Source: Candidatus Pacearchaeota archaeon
Lineage (GTDB): Archaea > Nanobdellota > Nanobdellia > Pacearchaeales > UBA284
Reading direction: 5' to 3'
Assembly: GCA_049699715.1 (NCBI GenBank)
Contig: JBNAVB010000003.1
Span: 1 to 58,605, forward strand
DNA: 58,605 nt
A program made the translations under genes and the position numbers. Below are positions 42,667-58,550 of the stretch, one piece after another (position 1 is the first letter of the stretch; each line of letters opens with the position of its first letter). The notes beneath the pieces are model-generated. The model did no database searches, had not been told where the DNA came from, and saw only the letters and a program-made list of their open reading frames with translations.

Positions 42667-44010
42667 TTAGAGACTGAGTGCGTTGTTCAAAACAGCGTGG
42701 ATTCTCTCGACCATCATTATAGGAAGGTCAACTCTTATCTCTCTCGTTCGGCCATAACGCCCCTTGCTTATAACTTTGGCATTGATTATTCCTTGCATAT
42801 CAAACTGCACGATAATGTCACTCACTCGCCTTTGCGTCAGATAATCTACTTTAAATTTTTTGCAAAGCTCACGATAAAGATTATAAACATCACCTGTAAA
42901 CAAAGGCTCGTTTCTCCTATCGCGGAAATTTTTCTTGAAAAGTTCAATGATTGCCATTAAGACAAGTTGGAATTGTTTTGGATGCGTTTCCACAGCCATT
43001 AAAATTTTGTCTGCCTCAATTTTTTCGTTGGCTTTATCAATATAATCTAATGTTATTTTGTTTTTGCCGTCTCTTTCAACTAGCTCTCCCGCAATTCTCA
43101 GCAAATCCAGCGCTCTTCTCGCGTCGCCATGCTCCCTAGCAGCGTAAGCCGCACATTTTTCTATGACTCCTTCTCCGATTACGCCTGATTTAAAAGCCTC
43201 TTTCGCTCTTTCTTTGAGGATGTCTTGGAGCTGCAATGCATTGTAGGGAGGGAATAAAATCTCTTCTTCGCTCAAAGAACTTTTGACTCTTGGATCTAAA
43301 GAATCGAGAAACTTTAAATCGTTGGATATACCGACAATGCTTATTTGTGCATTGTTCAGTTCATTGTTGATTCTCGTGAAATTGTACAAGAACTCATCCC
43401 CTATTCTTGCGACTGCTTGATCAATCTCGTCAAAGACAACAATCAACACCTGTTTCTTGTCGTCAATCAAGTTTACAAATCTGTGATAAAGCTGATCTGT
43501 GGGCAATCCTGTAGCGGGAACCTTATCTCCCAATTTTTTAATTAGCTCTGCCAAAATCCTATATTCTGTATCTGCTACTTTTTTCAACTTGCAATTAACA
43601 TATGGAATTAATAAAGTTATGTTTTGTTCCTGGGCTTTTTTCTGAAGTTGTTTTTTGATATATTGCATCACAAGTGTTTTGCCGGTGCCGGTCAACCCAT
43701 AAATAAAAAGATTGCTTGGCTTCTCTAACCTTAAGCTAGGGGCAACTATCGCGGCTACTTGGCTCACTTGCTTGTCCCTGTGTGGGATATTTTCCGGGGT
43801 GTAATTAGTCTGTAAAATTATTTTATTCTTGAAAATTGTCTGTTTGATAAAGGAATCAAAAATTTTATTGATGTCTCGCGGATCTCTTTCTTTACCAACT
43901 TTGCCATTACTTTTTCCCTTCCTATCCCCCTCCTTATTTTCTCTCTTTTCCATCCTTTCCTCGTTTTTTTGTAATTTATCGTCGTGCTTAGGCAAACGCC
44001 ACCACACCAT
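42667..44010 (-). CDS. cdc6: Orc1/Cdc6 replication initiator (true start possibly 43953)
   Basis: GLTGTGKT, DEID, LDPRVKS, HGDARRALD, GRYGRT. Confidence 0.97.
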   Translation of the reverse strand: MVWWRLPKHDDKLQKNEERMEKRENKEGDRKGKSNGKVGKERDPRDINKIFDSFIKQTIFKNKIILQTNYTPENIPHRDKQVSQVAAIVAPSLRLEKPSNLFIYGLTGTGKTLVMQYIKKQLQKKAQEQNITLLIPYVNCKLKKVADTEYRILAELIKKLGDKVPATGLPTDQLYHRFVNLIDDKKQVLIVVFDEIDQAVARIGDEFLYNFTRINNELNNAQISIVGISNDLKFLDSLDPRVKSSLSEEEILFPPYNALQLQDILKERAKEAFKSGVIGEGVIEKCAAYAAREHGDARRALDLLRIAGELVERDGKNKITLDYIDKANEKIEADKILMAVETHPKQFQLVLMAIIELFKKNFRDRRNEPLFTGDVYNLYRELCKKFKVDYLTQRRVSDIIVQFDMQGIINAKVISKGRYGRTREIRVDLPIMMVERIHAVLNNALSL

Positions 44011-44452
44011 TATTTCTAATGGAAAATGTTATGTGGCTTTTAGTTTAAAAATCTTTGTCCTCACGAAACAATAACAAAACCCTTATTGCGCATGGAATTC
44101 TTGTTTTTTAGTTTAGTAAAAAATTTATAGGTCTTTTATAATCTTGTTTTTTTAACCTTCTTGAGCAAGAATAAAATGTAACGAAAATGGAATATATACT
44201 AGGTTATAATAAAATGTAATGAAAATATTATATAAATTATACCTTAATTGGGCGGGTGTAATAATATCTTATACTAAACAAATTAATATATACACTATAA
44301 TATATAAAATTATAACATACACATACACTATAAAATTATAAAAAATATATACTACACTATACAAAAATTTATAAATGAAAAGTAATAAACCGAAAATCTC
44401 GTTGGTATTTAAAGCCTAATGAAATTTTCCATATGCAACAGGAGGGTAGGGG
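43998..44452. other. Replication origin oriC (ORBs plus AT-rich DUE)
   Basis: ORB-like TTCCATTAGAAATAATGGTGTGG (minus, ~44000-44024), TTCCATGCGCAATAAGGG (minus, 44080-44097) and TTCCATATGCAACAGGAGGG (plus, 44427-44446) flank a very AT-rich segment upstream of cdc6. Confidence 0.85.
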
Positions 44453-44599: not shown

Positions 44600-44860
44600 A
44601 TGGCATTAGAAAAAAGACCAGCAAAAGAGCTTGTAGGAAAGTTAGTTGTAACAAAAGAAGGTAAGCGAATCGGCATAGTGAAAGATTTGACATTTGAGAC
44701 AAGGAGCGGCGAACTTATACAACTAGTGATAACCAACGCAACATCTTACGCTTCATCTCTTAATCTAGAAAAAGGGAAAGCCGGCGAATTTCTTATCCCT
44801 TATTCTTCGATCATGGCAATAGGGGACTTTGTCGTGGTTAGCGAAGAGGACATGAGATAA
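44600..44860 (+). CDS. PRC-barrel protein (possible CdpB-like division protein)
   Basis: LVGKLVVTKEGKRIGIVKD...IPYSSIMAIGDFVVV. Confidence 0.85.
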   Translation: MALEKRPAKELVGKLVVTKEGKRIGIVKDLTFETRSGELIQLVITNATSYASSLNLEKGKAGEFLIPYSSIMAIGDFVVVSEEDMR

Positions 44861-44896
44861 GACAAATTCTACTCCACTTTTGTTGCATTTTGAAAA

Positions 44897-45343
44897 ATGG
44901 TAGTCATTGGTTTTAATCTGAAAAAAATTCTCGTTGAAAGGAAAACTTTAGTCAGAGGCGAAGTTAAAGTTAACACAAAAATGAATATTATTGATGTCAA
45001 GAAAGAGGACATCAAACTGACAGCCGGCAAAGATGTTATAAATTTTGATTTTGAATTTGCTGTAAATTACACAGGTATAGCTAATCACACAGGCCCCGTT
45101 GCCGATATTCTCTTCGAAGGCAACGTTCTATATCTCGTAGACCCTAAAGATACAAAAAAAATTCTTGATGACTGGAAAAGGAAAGAGATAGAAGAAGAAG
45201 TCAAGCTCAAGGTTCTAAACACAATACTAGCGAAATGCAATCTTAAAGCATTGGTTCTAGAAGAAGAATTGGGATTGCCCGCGCACCTGCCTATGCCGAG
45301 ATTCGGTGGCAAAAAAGGCAAAGAAAAAGAATCAAAAAAGTAA
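44897..45343 (+). CDS. Hypothetical archaeal protein
   Basis: Globular beta-rich ORF ending LPAHLPMP. Confidence 0.75.
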   Translation: MVVIGFNLKKILVERKTLVRGEVKVNTKMNIIDVKKEDIKLTAGKDVINFDFEFAVNYTGIANHTGPVADILFEGNVLYLVDPKDTKKILDDWKRKEIEEEVKLKVLNTILAKCNLKALVLEEELGLPAHLPMPRFGGKKGKEKESKK

Positions 45344-45363: not shown

Positions 45364-45486
45364 CGCCAGGAGGAGGATTCGAACCTCCAAGTCCGTAAGG
45401 ACATCGGTTATCTAGTTTTCTTTTTGCCTAAAGATTTTTTAAATCTTTATTTCGAGACCGACGCATTACCATTCTGCCATCCTGGC
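45364..45486 (-). tRNA. tRNA-Ser(CGA) with 41-nt intron at 37/38 (45410-45450)
   Basis: GCCAGGA/TCCTGGC, G73, long variable arm, anticodon stem TCGGT/ACCGA split by intron. Confidence 0.9.
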
Positions 45487-52960: not shown

Positions 52961-53296
52961 ATGCCAAGGATATCAGCGACAAAAGAGAACAAGATAAAAG
53001 AGGCCATACTGCATCTGTTATTCGAGCAGTCGCCCAAGTCGCTATTCACTTATCATATCGCTCGAGAACTTGCTAGAGATGAAGAATACATCAAGAAACT
53101 TATGCAAGAGCTCGAAGCCAAAAATATGGTAGCTGGCGTCCGCAAGAATAGCAATGGCAAAGATTACAGCAGAAGGATCAGATGGCGCCTTTCATCTCAA
53201 ACTTATGACGCTTACAAGAAGCTTAATACCAATTTTAACACTAATTATCCAAGCCAGTCGAGTACAATTCAACCAGAACAGTCGCCGCAATCTTAG
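52961..53296 (+). CDS. Winged-helix domain protein
   Basis: LFTYHIARELARDEEYIKKLMQELE...RRIRWRL; TATA atttataaat upstream. Confidence 0.75.
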   Translation: MPRISATKENKIKEAILHLLFEQSPKSLFTYHIARELARDEEYIKKLMQELEAKNMVAGVRKNSNGKDYSRRIRWRLSSQTYDAYKKLNTNFNTNYPSQSSTIQPEQSPQS

Positions 53297-53341
53297 TTTA
53301 AATTCCAAACAACAAATGGGCTAGGAAAACTGTTGTCTAAA

Positions 53342-54145
53342 ATGGGCTTTTTTAATAAAAACAAAGACAAAAGAATTGAGCTTTCTTTCCAGAAGATGAA
53401 ATCCGATGTTCTCAACCTCCAACAAGAAATTACTATCCTAAAGCAAGAGATTCAGGAAATAAACTCCAATTTTAACGCATTTCTTGGCCAGTTCAAGCAG
53501 GTTTTACACTCCAACAGATATCCAGCACACATCCAACACAAGAAACCTATTCCAACACATAATTCACAGAATCAGGCAATAAATCAGCCATATTTCCATA
53601 GTTCCATAGGAAATAAAGGGGTTCCAACAGACAGTCAACAGACAGTCAACAGACAACCCAACACATTAAAACGAATTTCTTTTTACAACAAGAATCTTTC
53701 CTATATACCTCTAGATTCTTCTGATCTAAGAAATCCTAATCTAAGAAAGATTCCTGGAGAGACTCCTATCAAAAATACACAGACTCCCCTTCAGGTTCAA
53801 GATCATAACAAAGATCAGATTGACATGCCGCAACTATCGAATATAGTTTCGAACATGAAGCAAGAGCTCCAAGAGAAGTTCAAAAAACTAACAAAACAGG
53901 AGTTCTTTGTTTTTTCAGTGTTGTATTCTCTTGAAGAAGAAAAAAGCAAAGTTACTTATAGGGACATAGCTTTAAGAGCCAAACTCGCCGAAAGTTCTGT
54001 TAGAGACTATGTCTCAAGGCTCGAATACAAGGGAATTCCATTAGTGAAAGAGCGTATAAATAATAAGGTTGTATCACTAAAGATATCACCTGAGCTTAGG
54101 AATATTGTGACTTTAGACTCGCTCTCGAAGCTGGTTAGATTCTAG
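53342..54145 (+). CDS. Coiled-coil plus C-terminal winged-helix protein with internal DNA repeats
   Basis: N-terminal SF.K.K.D coiled coil; LTKQE...TYRDIA....LAESSVRDYVSRL HTH. Confidence 0.8.
   Translation: MGFFNKNKDKRIELSFQKMKSDVLNLQQEITILKQEIQEINSNFNAFLGQFKQVLHSNRYPAHIQHKKPIPTHNSQNQAINQPYFHSSIGNKGVPTDSQQTVNRQPNTLKRISFYNKNLSYIPLDSSDLRNPNLRKIPGETPIKNTQTPLQVQDHNKDQIDMPQLSNIVSNMKQELQEKFKKLTKQEFFVFSVLYSLEEEKSKVTYRDIALRAKLAESSVRDYVSRLEYKGIPLVKERINNKVVSLKISPELRNIVTLDSLSKLVRF
53510..53665 (+). repeat. Intragenic ORB-like site flanked by 11-bp-phased repeats
   Basis: tccaacagata/tccagcacaca/tccaacacaag; GTTCCATAGGAAATAAAGGGG (53601-53621); caacagacagt x2 plus caacagaca. Confidence 0.8.
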
Positions 54146-54251
54146 TGATTCTAGTAACTTACATATGATGGCCTTAGAAACTCTCTTTCTAAAAACCTAT
54201 AAGCAGCTATAGCCAATTTATAGCTGCTAAATTAAATTGAAAGGAGGTAAA

Positions 54252-54338
54252 ATGCAATTAGGAGAAGAAACTTTTATTGGCTTAGACACACATAAAGAAA
54301 AGATAAGAAGTTGCTCAGCAATTTCCCTTGCAAACTAA
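54252..54338 (+). pseudogene. IS110-family recombinase N-terminal stub
   Basis: GGAGGT RBS; MQLGEETFIGLDTHKE carries the first DEDD motif (GxDxxK), then stop. Confidence 0.6.
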
Positions 54339-54960
54339 TAAAAATTTTAAAATAAAATTCTTGTGAAGGGTAGTTCTGTTAAGCCGATGACGAAGAAAAA
54401 ATGTCACAATAAAGAAAACGAACTTTTTTATTAAAATCTCAACGATAAATTTGTTCTCACCTTATAAGTTAGTATAACCCTCTTAATTGCTGTAATAAAG
54501 AAAGAGAGTTTATTCTAAGGGATGCCTTTTATTCCGTTTATACCATCCAAACTTTATTTTGGTTGTTCGGTTTACCGATTTAATTTTATTATATTCCTAG
54601 CTAAGAAACAATTCATTCAAATTATTTGGATTTAAGGCTTAAATATTGTTTTTAAAAAATCCTATAAAGCCCACTAGATACCTTTTTTCAATCATGAACT
54701 CACTTTGCCCTAAACTCAACTAGTTTCGATTTTCTCTTTTTTTCTTAGTTTTTTGAAACTTTTTTAGATCCTCACTTAAAGTTCGTTTTAATATGATAAC
54801 AAACTCTCACTTTTCCATCTTTTAAGGACTTTTTTATTCGGTTTGTAATACCCTTTTCCTCTCTTTTTCTTTTTTTACTCTTTTTTTGTAGTTTTTCTCT
54901 AGACTCTACATGTCTTAACTCTCACTTCTTCTGTTTTATTATTCGGTTTATTACTTCCCT

Positions 54961-55590
54961 TTACTTGCCCCATTCCCATCCTTCTGGCTTCCGGCTAGCC
55001 ATTTTTTTACTTTCGACTTTCATCTTTTTGAGCAGAATCCCCTTCAGTTTCTCATCAACATAATATCTCTTTTTCCCACTTTTTTCAATAAACTCACTTA
55101 TCCAGCTTTCATTCTTTTGTTTTATGTTGTTGATTTGACTTCTCACAGTTGACCTGTCCTTTGCGAGTAAAACTGCTATGTCTTCGCAGCTTAATTTCTG
55201 TTCAGAGTTCAACAAAATCCATAAAATAACCTTCTCCTGTTGTGTCAAACCTCTTAAAAATGCTGTTTGGACAGCTGTGTAGACAGGTGTTTGGACACCT
55301 TCCACACGTGTGTGTTTATCCACAGCTGTGGAATTCTGCCTAAAAACACGCGAGGCAACCCGCGTATCAAAGAATGAAATGAACTGTTTTATTCCGTCGA
55401 TATCCTGTTTAATTTCCATAATTTCATTGTAAATTCTTTGGATTTGATCTTCGTGCGAGCTGTCTTTGGCACTTAAATGTTTTATCCACGCTGAAATTTT
55501 GGAAATATCTTGCTTGACTGACTCAAAAGAATGAGCGATTTTCTCATCATCGTGCTCTTTTTTCTTTCTCCCGAACCAGAGAAAACCCAT
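54961..55590 (-). CDS. Coiled-coil plus winged-helix protein, paralog of 53342-54145
   Basis: MGF...SFESVKQDI; LTQQE...SCEDIA.....RSTVRSQINNI. Confidence 0.8.
   Translation of the reverse strand: MGFLWFGRKKKEHDDEKIAHSFESVKQDISKISAWIKHLSAKDSSHEDQIQRIYNEIMEIKQDIDGIKQFISFFDTRVASRVFRQNSTAVDKHTRVEGVQTPVYTAVQTAFLRGLTQQEKVILWILLNSEQKLSCEDIAVLLAKDRSTVRSQINNIKQKNESWISEFIEKSGKKRYYVDEKLKGILLKKMKVESKKMASRKPEGWEWGK
55262..55333. repeat. Intragenic 12-bp repeats and palindromes
   Basis: gctgtttggaca/gctgtgtagaca/ggtgtttggaca; palindromes cacacgtgtg and tccacagctgtgga. Confidence 0.75.
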
Positions 55591-55705: not shown

Positions 55706-55987
55706 ATGCCAAAAAAGCCGGGAAATGTTTTAGCCGAAAAAGCAAAGGAAAAAGCCAAAGATTTCGCAGCCAGGGTCAGAGATAAAATAGCTGTTGCAAT
55801 AGGCGCAGCTTTTGGATTAGTTATTGCTCTAGCATGGAACTCTGCGATTCAAGAAGGCGTTAACAATCTAATGACTTATTTAGGGATTGTCGGCACAACA
55901 TATATCTATAAACTAATTGCTGCTGTGGTTGTGACAATAATTGCCGTGATGGGGATCATTATAGTCTCAAGATGGGCTGAAAAGTGA
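55706..55987 (+). CDS. DUF5654-like small membrane protein
   Basis: AAFGLVIALAWNSAI. Confidence 0.75.
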   Translation: MPKKPGNVLAEKAKEKAKDFAARVRDKIAVAIGAAFGLVIALAWNSAIQEGVNNLMTYLGIVGTTYIYKLIAAVVVTIIAVMGIIIVSRWAEK

Positions 55988-56075
55988 AAAAAGCACAAAA
56001 ATACTAAAATAAAACAAAAAGCTTAAAACTTTCAAGCGAAATAGCATAAGTTTTAGCATGAATAAAAACTAAAAA

Positions 56076-56339
56076 ATGCCAAAAAACAAAGAGAAATCAA
56101 AAAAAGTAAAGCGTAGTTTCAGAAGAGAGTTCAAGAGACAAGTAAGAATGGCAGTTGCAGCAGCAATTGGTTTTATTATAGCTTTTAGTTGGAGAAACTT
56201 CGTTTATGACATGACAAAAACATGGCTAGAAAAAATAACTCCCTTAAGCGGAGCTTTTGAGAGTAGATTAGCCTCTGCTCTTTTCATAACAGTCATCGGA
56301 GTGATTCTCATACTTATCAGCTCTCGGCTTCTAAAATAA
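56076..56339 (+). CDS. DUF5654-like small membrane protein (paralog)
   Basis: AAIGFIIAFSWR. Confidence 0.7.
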   Translation: MPKNKEKSKKVKRSFRREFKRQVRMAVAAAIGFIIAFSWRNFVYDMTKTWLEKITPLSGAFESRLASALFITVIGVILILISSRLLK

Positions 56340-57027: not shown

Positions 57028-57852
57028 GTGGAAAAAATGAAAAAAGAGGAATTTCTTGAAAAACTTGAAACCGAGCTAAAGCTAATAAAAAAATCTCCCT
57101 TGACAATTCGTAATTACAAATACTTTAATTCAAAATTATTAGATTCTGTAAACAAAGAGCCAGATGCTTTAACAGAAGGCGATATCAAAAAGTTTTTAGC
57201 AGCAATGGCAGACAAAGCCTCTAGCTCAATGATTCTTGCTTTAGCAGCTATAAGATTTGCAAGTTCCAAGATTTTGGGCAAGGATTTAACACTCAATATA
57301 GAAAGGCCAAAAAAAGAAAAAACCCTGCCAAGCGTTCTAAGCAAGGATGAAATCAAAGCCCTAATCGAGTCAGCAGAAACAAAGAAATCAAGGCTAATAA
57401 TTCAGTTTCTTTATAGTACAGGATTAAGAGTTTCAGAATTAGTTAATTTGAAAGTCCAAGATCTCAATCTTGCAGAAAAAACAGGCATAGTTAGGCAAGG
57501 AAAAGGCAAGAAAGACCGAATGTTTACATTATCAGAAAAATCAATAAGTGATATTCAGGCTTATCTCAATGAACACCCCCAAAATACATATCTTTTCTCA
57601 GAAACTGAGCCCCTCACAACCCGCAACATACAAAAAATAATCAAACATACAGCAAAAAAAGCTCAAATCCAGAAGAAAGTTACCCCCCACACTCTAAGAC
57701 ATAGCTATGCAACGCATTTGTTAGAATCAGGCACAGATATCAGGGTAATCCAGACATTATTAGGCCACGAAAATCTCAACACAACTCAAATCTACACCCA
57801 TGTCAGCACAGAAGAGCTGAAGAAAGTCAAGAATCCTTTAGACGAATTGTAA
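57028..57852 (+). CDS. xerA: Tyrosine recombinase XerA
   Basis: TGLRVSEL, GKGKKDR, HTLRHSYATH, LGH, TTQIYTH. Confidence 0.9.
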   Translation: MEKMKKEEFLEKLETELKLIKKSPLTIRNYKYFNSKLLDSVNKEPDALTEGDIKKFLAAMADKASSSMILALAAIRFASSKILGKDLTLNIERPKKEKTLPSVLSKDEIKALIESAETKKSRLIIQFLYSTGLRVSELVNLKVQDLNLAEKTGIVRQGKGKKDRMFTLSEKSISDIQAYLNEHPQNTYLFSETEPLTTRNIQKIIKHTAKKAQIQKKVTPHTLRHSYATHLLESGTDIRVIQTLLGHENLNTTQIYTHVSTEELKKVKNPLDEL

Positions 57853-57940: not shown

Positions 57941-58550
57941 GCATAAATTTAAGCGAAGAATTCCACTAGTCTATGACTAGTGGTAAAAGCAAAAGCTTTT
58001 TCTTCTTTGCATAATTATTATGAAAGTAGCTTTGATGCTAAGCTACTGAAAGCACCCAATTAGCTGTAGCTTTCTATCTTAATAAAATTTTCGGAGGTGT
58101 AAAATGTTAGCTAGAGCTAGCTCTTGTGTTGGAAGTTCATGGTGTCATGCTATGTTCAAAATAAAATACTGTCACCCAATTTTCGACGACGTTAGGGTAA
58201 GATTTTTTACTTACCTTAGGTTAAAAGAAATATCCGAGCGATATGATATGCCAATAAAAAAGGTAGGATTTAACTCGAATCGTGTGCATTTTCGCGTCGA
58301 TATAAAGTTGAGAAGCAAACCGGAAGTTGCGAAAATAATAAAAGGAATAACAGGAAAGAAAATTCTTGAGGCTTTTCCAGAAATAAAGAAAAAATATTTC
58401 TGGGGAAGTGGCTTTTGGAATCCCGCTTATTTGATGGATAACATTGGCGGTGACGAGGGGGCTATAGATAATTATATTGCTTCTCAGAAATATCCAATTA
58501 ATTGATTACGCCGCGATCATGCCACCGGTCACAGACCGGTGGTTCTTGAC
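57941..58550 (+). mobile_element. IS200-like element (tnpA only)
   Basis: Subterminal hairpins ccactagtc-tat-gactagtgg (57963-57983) and ccaccggtc-aca-gaccggtgg-ttcttgac (58522-58550); left boundary approximate. Confidence 0.85.
58104..58505 (+). CDS. tnpA: IS200/IS605 Y1 transposase TnpA
   Basis: H.MF..KY, IKG, FWGSGFW, YIASQ (YxxxQ); HUH motif reads RVH. Confidence 0.9.
   Translation: MLARASSCVGSSWCHAMFKIKYCHPIFDDVRVRFFTYLRLKEISERYDMPIKKVGFNSNRVHFRVDIKLRSKPEVAKIIKGITGKKILEAFPEIKKKYFWGSGFWNPAYLMDNIGGDEGAIDNYIASQKYPIN

What the first reader, a model, noticed from the sequence alone, without database searches (positions are those of the whole stretch)
52961..55590. Candidate undescribed replication/segregation module: winged-helix genes carrying an ORB and iteron-like repeats inside the coding sequence
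Seen: the 53342-54145 gene contains GTTCCATAGGAAATAAAGGGG, a better ORB with G-string than those at oriC. It is flanked on both sides by triplets of (t)cCAACAsA repeats at an 11-bp period (53510-53542, 53625-53655). That period is about one helical turn and not a multiple of 3, so selection is likely on DNA; the encoded stretch is a low-complexity linker. A paralog faces it convergently, a third wHTH gene lies upstream, an AT-rich spacer lies between, and oriC and xerA are nearby. Known: lambda O-type initiators hold their iterons intragenically, and WhiP is a non-Orc wHTH archaeal initiator. Inference: a second, Cdc6-coupled origin, an initiator-titration site, or a centromere-like site bound by the encoded proteins.
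Basis: partly seen in the sequence, partly recalled or inferred. Interest (0 to 1): 0.85.

Follow-up and report, generated by a model that had tools for sequence, protein, structure and literature searches.

The report
Origin-recognition box frozen inside a gene
A DNA site of the kind that the archaeal replication initiator Orc1/Cdc6 recognises is kept letter for letter, silent codon positions included, inside a DNA-binding-protein gene next to the replication origin of a group of tiny archaea, so part of that protein is really a translated DNA signal.

Summary
TTCCATAGGAAATAAAGGGG (53602-53621) is the only strict ORB match in the 622-kb assembly. It lies in the disordered-linker coding part of a coiled-coil + MarR-like winged-helix gene. 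In 23 orthologs the seven motif codons are practically fixed (157 of 159), while conserved residues elsewhere use 2-6 codons. The box occurs once per genome, always in this gene. It is the same motif as the boxes in the cdc6-adjacent oriC, and the most canonical one in every origin region examined. Gene and cdc6 are always divergent, 1.4-15 kb apart.

TCCAACA heptamers flank the box, used in several reading frames. The 11-bp period is local to this family. The convergent paralog carries its own frozen GTYCAAACA repeats.

Best reading: a non-origin, high-affinity Orc1/Cdc6 site coupling the initiator to this gene module. It is probably not a second origin: there is one box, no inverted partner and no adjacent unwinding region. 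Binding is untested.

Known precedents are intragenic ORBs in Thermococcales dp1 and the ORB-rich oriC2D of Haloarcula. This scan noted the same phenomenon before on other genomes.

The parts
42667..44010 (-). orc1/cdc6 initiator gene (context)
   Evidence: Pfam Cdc6_lid 1.3e-25 and Cdc6_C 1.1e-24. One copy found in the assembly.
44005..44446 (.). cdc6-adjacent oriC-like gap: two inverted ORB-like boxes (44005-44024 minus strand, 44427-44446 plus strand) around an AT-rich stretch
   Evidence: Sequence and repeats. These are the best non-self PWM hits of the region. Neutral core scores 12/14 and 11/14.
52961..53296 (+). small (111 aa) winged-helix-like gene, first gene of the module
   Evidence: Weak Pfam wHTH hits below cut-off. 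An ortholog lies directly upstream of gene 1 in the relatives' loci.
53342..54145 (+). gene 1: 267 aa with an N-terminal long helix, a disordered middle and a C-terminal MarR-like winged helix. It hosts the ORB.
   Evidence: AlphaFold2 model. Foldseek matches to MarR-family structures. Family present in 56 of 61 relatives and in 656 clusters at 50% identity.
53510..53557 (+). upstream heptamers TCCAACA / TCCAGCA / TCCAACA / TCCAACA (starts 53510, 53521, 53532, 53551), read in three different frames
   Evidence: Positions -92, -70 and -51 relative to the box recur in relatives.
53602..53621 (+). canonical ORB (dyad TTCCAnnGGAAA plus G-string), translated as S-I-G-N-K-G
   Evidence: Unique in window and assembly. 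Synonymous sites frozen in 23 orthologs. One copy per genome in 42 of 61 relatives by exact pattern. Same motif as the oriC boxes.
53623..53665 (+). downstream heptamer TCCAACA, then the 11-nt repeat CAACAGACAGT x2.8: the local form of an (ACAG)-type tract that follows the box in relatives
   Evidence: TRF. Relatives' sequences.
54146..54960 (.). AT-rich spacer between the convergent genes, with four sense-strand copies of NCTCACTT (starts 54698, 54770, 54805, 54920)
   Evidence: The motif occurs 36 times in 5,724 nt of 19 spacers, all on the sense strand, against 28 sense + 6 antisense in 210 kb of flanking DNA.
54961..55590 (-). gene 2: 209-aa convergent paralog with the same architecture
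   Evidence: hhalign of the two families' winged-helix domains gives 95.9%.
55262..55345 (-). DNA repeats inside gene 2: GTCCAAACA x2 within a 12-nt array, plus the palindrome TCCACAGCTGTGGA and the ACAnnTGT series
   Evidence: TRF. Genome-wide uniqueness. In 18 orthologs the Gln codon is always CAA and the Thr codon almost always ACA in the VQT repeats.

Best explanation
The element at 53602-53621 is a genuine origin-recognition box, that is, a binding site for the single Orc1/Cdc6 initiator of this archaeon. It is kept by selection on the DNA itself inside the linker-coding part of a conserved, origin-linked DNA-binding-protein gene.

Shown:
1. It has the dyad plus G-string of ORBs.
2. It is the same motif as the boxes that flank the AT-rich oriC next to cdc6 in the same genomes, and it is the most canonical copy in every origin region examined.
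3. Its silent codon positions are frozen across an order and, for the core, across other orders of the class.
4. It occurs once per genome, always in this gene. The gene always lies on the oriC side of cdc6 and is transcribed away from it.
5. The peptide it encodes lies in a region predicted to be disordered.

Inferred:
- Orc1/Cdc6 occupies this box as a high-affinity site outside the origin proper.
- Because the box sits in the transcribed body of a regulator gene, it probably couples initiator occupancy to this three-gene module. Orc1 could act as a roadblock or repressor of the gene. The box could also act as a small initiator sink that is duplicated soon after initiation.
- The flanking TCCAACA-type heptamers, the GTYCAAACA repeats in the paralog and the NCTCACTT repeats in the spacer are probably sites for one or more of the module's own winged-helix proteins, so the locus would assemble a larger nucleoprotein complex.
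- It is probably not an independent origin.

The confidence given (0.6) is for the whole statement. For the narrower claim that this is an Orc1/Cdc6 site under DNA-level selection I put about 0.85.
For: Uniqueness.

Codon test (23 orthologs, protein identity to the window's protein 34-63% where the match spans the whole gene): TCC 22/22, GGA 23/23, AAT 21/23, GGG 23/23, GTT 23/23, CCA 23/23, GAC 22/22. Conserved residues in the helix and winged-helix parts use 2-6 codons, with a top-codon share of 0.29-0.83. Background shares of TCC, GGG and GAC in these genes are 0.13, 0.12 and 0.29.

Same motif as oriC: with a position weight matrix (PWM) built from the intragenic boxes, the best other hits of each locus fall in the cdc6-adjacent gap as inverted pairs (read against the ORF maps). 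In the leave-one-out scan with an automatic 790-nt zone covering 7.7% of a locus, 19 of 21 best and 16 of 21 second-best hits fall in the zone.

Neutral core: the intragenic box scores 14/14 in 19 of 21 loci and 13/14 in 2, and is top or tied top in all 21.

Published ORBs: passages of PMC1904270 name 'TTCC' and 'GAA' as the perfectly conserved core motifs. The printed ORB oligos carry ATTTCCACTGGA, the complement of the same core.

Linkage: in all 41 genomes where gene and cdc6 share a contig they are divergent and 1.4-15 kb apart (my reading of the coordinates). The same holds in 4 of 5 genomes of other orders.

Breadth: the gene is found in 84 of 121 genomes of the class. The box is in frame in 18 of 21 further loci by regex and in the other 3 by PWM.

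Disorder: residues 58-161 have pLDDT below 50.

Precedent for Orc1/Cdc6 binding to intragenic ORBs beside the origin: abstract and passages of PMC1904270.
Against: No binding data exist for this lineage. Orc1 occupancy is inferred from motif identity only.

A single box is a weak sink compared with known titration loci (11 boxes in oriC2D).

No transcript data could be obtained, so the roadblock idea is untested.

The genomes are related metagenome bins, so counts across them overstate independence.

The peptide S-I/T-G-N-x-G-V is itself invariant. A protein-level role for it, in addition to the DNA role, cannot be excluded.

The heptamers sit mostly in one frame (39 of 55 copies), so part of their conservation could be peptide-level (P-T-H/D).

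No residue in the three winged-helix proteins covaries with the heptamer type.
Confidence: 0.6

Rival explanations
1. A second, Orc1-dependent replication origin written into a gene, in the manner of phage lambda's origin inside gene O. Heptamer 'iterons' plus the ORB would recruit initiator and helicase, and the 4-nt repeat tract or the AT-rich spacer would melt.
For: A canonical box flanked by repeated heptamers in linker-coding DNA. Conserved repeat arrays of similar sequence lie in inverted orientation in the two convergent genes, around an AT-rich spacer. The lambda arrangement itself is recalled, not checked.
Against: There is one box, or two tandem boxes in the same orientation in a few relatives, never an inverted pair. 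No ORB-like hit lies in the spacer or in gene 2. In Sulfolobus oriC1, loss of either of the two inverted boxes abolishes origin activity (Introduction of PMC12141716). The tract next to the box is not AT-rich in this order ((ACAG)n). A regular oriC with inverted boxes lies 1.4-15 kb away in the same genomes.
Confidence: 0.1
2. A centromere-like or autoregulatory operator locus. The heptamers, the GTYCAAACA repeats and the NCTCACTT repeats are bound by the module's own winged-helix proteins, as parS lies inside parB/spo0J in bacteria. The ORB is one component, or is recognised by one of these proteins rather than by Orc1.
For: Three kinds of locus-specific conserved repeats lie within 2 kb, and all are unique to this locus in the assembly. 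Repeat units are homogenised within a genome and differ between genomes: all copies are TTCGACA in L032 and L039, and GTT or GTC throughout in gene 2. That pattern is typical of iterons. Three DNA-binding genes are always adjacent.
Against: No partition ATPase was seen in the conserved block. No covarying residue was found in the three proteins (a weak test). The box itself matches the oriC boxes, which argues for Orc1 as its reader.
Confidence: 0.15
3. An RNA-level signal in the mRNA: a structure or a protein-binding site that controls translation or stability.
For: The 171-nt stretch folds better than its shuffles (z -3.3, 0 of 200 shuffles as good).
Against: The predicted hairpins rest on the box's own dyad and on a duplication (TTCCATAG TTCCATAGG) seen only in this genus. 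No Rfam family matches. The same motif occurs on both strands in non-transcribed oriC gaps.
Confidence: 0.04
4. A purely protein-level short linear motif (SIGNxGVPTD) in a disordered linker. On this view the nucleotide identity is a side effect of codon bias or of repeat homogenisation, and the repeats are slippage-prone simple sequence, possibly a phase-variable switch.
For: The peptide is invariant. The downstream tract is microsatellite-like and open in all frames. Repeat units are homogenised within genomes.
Against: The fixed codons TCC, GGG and GAC are minority codons in these very genes (0.13, 0.12, 0.29). The box is not repetitive, so homogenisation cannot explain it. Heptamers occur in three frames. 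All assemblies examined are in frame, with one stop among the 78 match rows.
Confidence: 0.04

Closest known systems
Intragenic ORB3 / mini-ORB cluster in the dp1 (PolD small subunit) gene of Pyrococcus and Thermococcus (Matsunaga et al. 2007, PMC1904270; abstract and passages read)
   Same: ORB-type boxes inside a protein-coding gene a few kb from oriC, conserved across an order. In Pyrococcus they are bound by Cdc6/Orc1 in vivo and in vitro. Function unknown there too.
   Different: There it is a cluster of one ORB plus several mini-ORBs, in a replication-enzyme gene on the far side of cdc6. Here it is a single full box in the disordered-linker coding part of a winged-helix regulator gene on the oriC side. 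It has frozen silent sites, flanking heptamers and a 4-nt repeat tract, and it spans a class of DPANN archaea.
ORB-rich region oriC2D downstream of cdc6E in Haloarcula hispanica (Wu et al. 2014, PMC3936714; abstract and passages read), and E. coli datA as cited there
   Same: Initiator boxes outside the origin proper, close to the initiator gene, proposed to control initiation by binding the initiator.
   Different: oriC2D is intergenic and holds 11 boxes in 722 bp. Here there are one or two boxes, inside a coding sequence.
Canonical archaeal oriC1-type origins: inverted ORBs flanking a DUE beside orc1/cdc6 (reviews PMC4010727; Introduction of PMC12141716)
   Same: The same box sequence, and polar binding is expected. 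The same genomes carry such an origin next to cdc6.
   Different: The intragenic copy has no inverted partner and no adjacent AT-rich unwinding element.
Phage lambda origin inside gene O, and parS inside spo0J/parB of Bacillus
   Same: Cis-acting repeats are embedded in the coding sequence of a DNA-binding protein gene. In lambda they lie in its linker-coding part.
   Different: In those systems the gene's own product is the known reader.

Membership tests
Archaeal origin recognition box (ORB) | Dyad core with the conserved TTCC and GAA motifs (TTCCAnnGGAAA) | tested here: met
   Exact match at 53602-53613. The core motifs are as named in PMC1904270. The full 20-nt neutral core (dyad plus G-string) scores 14/14 in 19 of 21 related loci.
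Archaeal origin recognition box (ORB) | G-rich string at fixed distance 3' of the dyad | tested here: met
   GGGG at 53618-53621, at invariant spacing in all orthologs shown.
Archaeal origin recognition box (ORB) | Same motif present at the orc1/cdc6-adjacent origin of the same genome | tested here: met
   The best non-self PWM hits lie in the cdc6-adjacent gap, as inverted pairs.
Archaeal origin recognition box (ORB) | Bound by Orc1/Cdc6 | not testable with these tools
   No protein-DNA prediction or binding data were available.
Replication origin (oriC1 type) | At least two inverted ORBs flanking an AT-rich unwinding element | tested here: not met
   No inverted partner lies within gene 1, the spacer or gene 2. 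The tract beside the box is (ACAG)-like.
Replication origin (oriC1 type) | Initiation activity (marker frequency, ARS) | not testable with these tools
   The assembly is in 26 contigs, and no sequencing run was listed.
Initiator-titration locus (datA / oriC2D type) | Cluster of many initiator boxes | tested here: not met
   One box per genome; two in a few relatives.
Initiator-titration locus (datA / oriC2D type) | Located close to the origin, so replicated early | tested here: met
   1.4-15 kb from cdc6 in all 41 genomes where both share a contig.
Lambda-O-type origin within the initiator gene | Repeated sites inside the linker-coding part of a DNA-binding protein gene | tested here: met
   Heptamers and box lie in residues 57-108 of a region with pLDDT below 50.
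Lambda-O-type origin within the initiator gene | The gene's own product binds those repeats and starts replication | not testable with these tools
   The covariation test was negative but weak.
MarR-like winged-helix regulators (gene 1, C-terminal domain) | Winged helix-turn-helix fold | tested here: met
   Confident model for residues 163-264. Foldseek best matches are MarR-family structures, E 4e-4 to 5e-3. Pfam HTH hits are all below their cut-offs.
Simple-sequence contingency locus (phase variation) | Repeat tract whose length varies within populations and shifts the frame | not tested
   No reads were available. All assembled orthologs are in frame.

The most novel reading that the evidence does not exclude
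The ORB, the phased heptamers and the repeat arrays in the paralog and spacer together form a previously undescribed archaeal replication-control locus. On it, Orc1/Cdc6 and the module's own winged-helix proteins would assemble a nucleoprotein complex written into the linker-coding DNA of its own regulators. It would be a cellular counterpart of lambda's origin-in-gene-O logic. It would act as a licensing or re-initiation switch, or as a conditional second start site, for the very small chromosomes of DPANN archaea.
Probability: 0.25. Interest if true: 0.85.

Novelty: new variant of a known kind. Interest (0 to 1): 0.72.

Why it matters
How archaea with a single Orc1/Cdc6 control the timing and number of initiations is largely unknown, and nothing is known for DPANN archaea.

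This is a perfectly conserved, single-copy, best-in-genome initiator box held inside a regulator gene next to the origin. That points to a concrete control point that can be tested in vitro with synthetic DNA and recombinant proteins, without culturing the organisms.

It is also a clean example of a protein 'motif' (SIGNxGV...TDRQ) that is really a translated DNA signal. That matters for anyone who annotates conserved motifs in disordered regions.

By my own recalled order-of-magnitude arithmetic (not from any call), one molecule in such ultra-small cells corresponds to roughly 1e-7 M. That is in the range of the half-binding concentrations reported for Pyrococcus Cdc6 on single ORBs (110-240 nM). 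A single extra box could therefore matter quantitatively.

Tried and rejected
Heterodimer prediction of the two N-terminal helices: no verdict, so not used as evidence.

Search for sequencing runs holding the locus: none was listed, so transcript ends, coverage and repeat-length variation could not be examined.

Rfam at gathering and at permissive thresholds: nothing in the locus beyond chance-level hits.

Covariation between heptamer type (TCCAACA or TTCGACA) and residues of the three winged-helix proteins: only the Pro-to-Ser changes encoded by the heptamers themselves.

Looking for the repeats elsewhere in the assembly as a regulon signal: they are locus-specific.

Window GC-skew profile: dominated by gene orientation, with no usable switch.

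Pfam and NCBIfam-type naming of the module proteins: only sub-threshold HTH hits. The NCBIfam call failed on a coordinate slip and was replaced by a Pfam call.

A promoter reading of the box was considered and dropped: the central AAATRAA is a poor TATA match in most orthologs (by eye).

A XerA/dif reading was considered and dropped: no two-armed site could be made from the element (by eye; the dif consensus is recalled only).

Literature: no paper on ORBs in DPANN or Pacearchaeota, or on synonymous-site-frozen intragenic ORBs, was found in searches. Supplementary files were not consulted.
Full report
**What is in the window.** The window is contig C3 of a 621,762-base, 26-contig assembly with about 37% G+C. 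The sources of the closest protein relatives call it Pacearchaeota or Nanobdellota. It carries orc1/cdc6 (42667-44010, minus strand) followed by the PolD small-subunit gene. An AT-rich, oriC-like gap lies upstream of cdc6, with two inverted ORB-like boxes. A PRC-barrel gene follows, then an Lhr-type helicase.

The finding's three genes come next. They are a 111-aa winged-helix-like gene (52961-53296), gene 1 (53342-54145, 267 aa) and the convergent gene 2 (54961-55590, 209 aa). An 815-nt spacer with 25-31% G+C separates genes 1 and 2. A XerA-like recombinase lies at 57028-57852.

**The observation.** GTTCCATAGGAAATAAAGGGG is at 53601-53621. The strict ORB pattern TTCCANNGGAAAN{3,9}GGGG occurs once in the window, and in 0 of 100 shuffles. 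It occurs once in the whole assembly.

TRF reports 11-nt arrays on both sides. One is at 53506-53540 (3.3 copies, 72% matches). The other is at 53625-53655 (2.8 copies, 100%). The heptamers TCCAACA/TCCAGCA start at 53510, 53521, 53532, 53551 and 53623.

**Selection is on the nucleotides.**
- Gene 1 has relatives in 56 of 61 genomes of the same order and in 656 clusters at 50% identity in the large library.
- In an alignment of 21 relatives, the 'linker' stretch S-I-G-N-x-G-V-P-T-D-S-Q-Q is the best-conserved part of the protein.
- Of the 30 loci fetched, 23 matched my peptide pattern and went into the codon comparison. In these the codons are TCC 22/22, GGA 23/23, AAT 21/23, GGG 23/23, GTT 23/23, CCA 23/23 and GAC 22/22.
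- By contrast, 42 other conserved columns of the same genes use 2-6 codons, with a top-codon share of 0.29-0.83.
- TCC, GGG and GAC are minority codons in these genes (0.13, 0.12, 0.29).
- The 7 loci that my pattern dropped were scanned separately. Each has an ORB-like box, with a variant sequence after the G-string. In six it lies inside the ORF of the same gene; in the seventh (L026) no ORF could be called at the box.
- The genomes are related, so no formal probability is claimed. But protein identities to the window's protein of 34-63%, where the match spans the whole gene, mean that silent sites elsewhere have turned over, as the codon table shows.

**It is an ORB by comparison with the genomes' own origins.** I fetched 20 regions spanning cdc6 to the gene and mapped their ORFs.
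- A position weight matrix (PWM) built from the intragenic boxes finds its next-best hits in the AT-rich gap beside cdc6, usually as an inverted pair.
- In a leave-one-out version with an automatically placed 790-nt zone (7.7% of a locus on average), 19 of 21 best and 16 of 21 second-best non-self hits fall in the zone.
- Most of the misses lie inside, or within about 50 nt of, the ORF-defined gap, because my extrapolated cdc6 start overshoots. The second-best hit of L049 is weak (7.1 bits) and lies outside the gap. In L047 the script took an oriC box that itself fits the full pattern as 'the element'.
- Against a neutral core (TTCCANNGGAAANNNNGGGG, 14 specified letters) the intragenic box scores 14/14 in 19 loci and 13/14 in 2. 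It is the top or tied-top site in all 21. The oriC boxes score 11-13, and 14 once.
- The passages I read of Matsunaga et al. 2007 (PMC1904270) name TTCC and GAA as the perfectly conserved core of Pyrococcus ORBs. They print ORB oligos that carry the complement of the same core.

**Copy number, linkage and breadth.**
- The 18-letter pattern GGAAAYNNNGGGGTTCCA is found in 42 of 61 related genomes. It occurs once each (twice in G023, one of the two at a contig end), always at the gene's coordinates. The reversed control has no matches.
- Where gene 1 and cdc6 lie on one contig (41 genomes, my reading of the coordinates) they are always divergent. The gene is on the oriC side, 1.4-15 kb away.
- The conserved block is: cdc6, oriC gap, PRC-barrel gene, a ~140-aa gene, an optional insert (Lhr helicase, phosphoesterase and others), the ~90-aa wHTH gene, gene 1, then convergent gene 2.
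- Outside the order the exact pattern is rare: 3 of 25 matching genomes among 401 sampled. The gene family, however, is in 84 of 121 genomes of the class.
- The orthologs from other families and orders keep TTCCAnnGGAAAtnnnGGGGT in frame. This holds for 18 of 21 loci by regex and for the other three by PWM.
- In 4 of 5 genomes of other orders the gene is again divergent from cdc6, at 4-8.5 kb. In the fifth it lies 14.6 kb downstream in the same orientation.

**The repeats.**
- Downstream of the G-string, relatives carry 4-nt-based tracts that differ by lineage: (ACAG)n with recurring CCAACAGAC, (CAAA)n, (ATTC)n or (CAAT)n. This explains the family's common peptide TDRQTDRQ. The 11-nt repeat of this window is the local form, shared with its genus.
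- The heptamer T[CT]C[AG]ACA occurs 55 times in the 5,000 nt around the box in 20 genes, against 173 times in 448 kb of the same loci on both strands, a 28-fold excess.
- The positions -92, -81, -70, -51 and +21 relative to the box recur.
- 39 of 55 copies are in one frame. Four genes, this one among them, use all three frames.
- In L032 and L039 every copy, including the one abutting the G-string, reads TTCGACA, while the box is unchanged. So the heptamers behave as a set, and their reader is probably not Orc1.
- No residue of the three winged-helix proteins covaries with this switch. With two genomes this is a weak test.
- Heptamer spacings of 11 and 12 are the commonest short ones (5 each), but 7, 10, 13 and 18-19 also occur.

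**The paralog and the spacer.**
- Gene 2 has the same architecture. Its winged-helix domain is homologous to that of gene 1 by profile comparison (95.9%, E 6e-9), although BLASTP gives only E 0.045.
- Its middle part encodes (VQTx)3. In 18 orthologs Gln is always CAA (17/17, 15/15, 18/18) and Thr almost always ACA. Gln elsewhere in the gene splits 8:8 and 9:7.
- The Val codon and the fourth codon are uniform within a genome but differ between genomes. Iterons evolving in concert show this pattern.
- The unit TTCAAACAG differs by one letter from gene 1's TTCCAACAG. The two arrays are inverted relative to each other.
- The spacer carries NCTCACTT 36 times in 5,724 nt of 19 loci. All copies are on the sense strand of gene 1, and 18 of 19 loci have at least one. 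The flanking 210 kb hold 28 sense and 6 antisense copies. The motif is locus-specific in this assembly.

**The protein.** AlphaFold2 with the 21-row alignment gives a long N-terminal helix (6-56), no confident structure for 58-161 (pLDDT below 50), and a confident winged helix at 163-264. The fold's best matches are MarR-family regulators. The box and heptamers therefore lie in DNA that encodes a disordered linker, where almost any open reading frame is tolerated.

**Mechanism.** The identity of the element as an ORB under DNA-level selection is well supported. I put about 0.85 on its being an Orc1/Cdc6 site.

An independent origin is unlikely, for four reasons. There is one box, or tandem boxes in the same orientation. 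There is no inverted partner in the gene, the spacer or the paralog. No AT-rich element adjoins it. In Sulfolobus both inverted boxes are needed (Introduction of PMC12141716).

A classical titration locus has many boxes (PMC3936714). A single best-in-genome box replicated right after initiation could still matter in very small cells; that is my inference.

Because the box lies in the transcribed body of a regulator gene, I favour a coupling role. Orc1 occupancy would gate the gene or module, or the box would act as a small sink. The module's own proteins would read the other repeats. These steps are inferred, not shown.

**Comparison and novelty.** Intragenic ORBs beside an origin that are bound by Cdc6 are known from the dp1 gene of Thermococcales. 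Extra-origin ORB clusters with a negative role are known from Haloarcula.

I found no paper describing ORBs in DPANN archaea, or a box with frozen silent sites in a regulator gene. Supplementary files were not seen.

This scan's earlier notes on other genomes describe the same gene-embedded box and reach a similar reading. I saw them after forming mine, and they are not independent evidence.

I class the finding as a new variant of a known kind.

Noticed in passing
window 54698-54927 (spacer 54146-54960): Four same-strand copies of NCTCACTT(T). One (54805) is preceded by GTTCGTTTTAAT about 10 nt upstream. This composite recurs in relatives' spacers. The motif is 47-fold enriched in the spacers of 19 loci and is always on the sense strand. 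It could be a protein site, a promoter plus transcript start for a small or antisense RNA, or part of a ~105-130-nt degenerate tandem unit.
   Followed up: partly
window 55304-55345 (inside gene 2): A perfect 14-nt palindrome TCCACAGCTGTGGA and a series of ACAnnTGT palindromes. They are specific to this genus; other relatives have further CAAACAGGTGTT units there instead.
   Followed up: partly
L048 (G051), L025 (G009), L061 (G049): Some relatives carry two ORB-like boxes in tandem, in the same orientation, 43-88 nt apart inside the same gene.
   Followed up: no
window 44600-45343 and the relatives' loci: A PRC-barrel protein (86 aa, Pfam PRC 8e-10) and a ~140-aa protein with no family hit always sit directly beside the oriC gap, opposite cdc6.
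   Followed up: partly
window 55706-56339: Two small DUF5654 membrane-protein genes follow gene 2. By eye, from N-terminal sequence only, similar small genes and a XerA-type recombinase gene appear nearby in several relatives. The conserved neighbourhood may therefore extend beyond the three-gene module.
   Followed up: no
window 45364-45486 (minus strand): Rfam finds a tRNA spanning 123 nt that ARAGORN did not report. It is presumably an intron-containing tRNA gene.
   Followed up: no
window 58104-58505: An IS200-type Y1 transposase gene lies at the end of the contig.
   Followed up: no
genomes G169, G241, G382, G160, G318 (other orders): These genomes have a second, distant Orc1/Cdc6 paralog (31-33% identity) far from the first. 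The order of the window shows only one.
   Followed up: no
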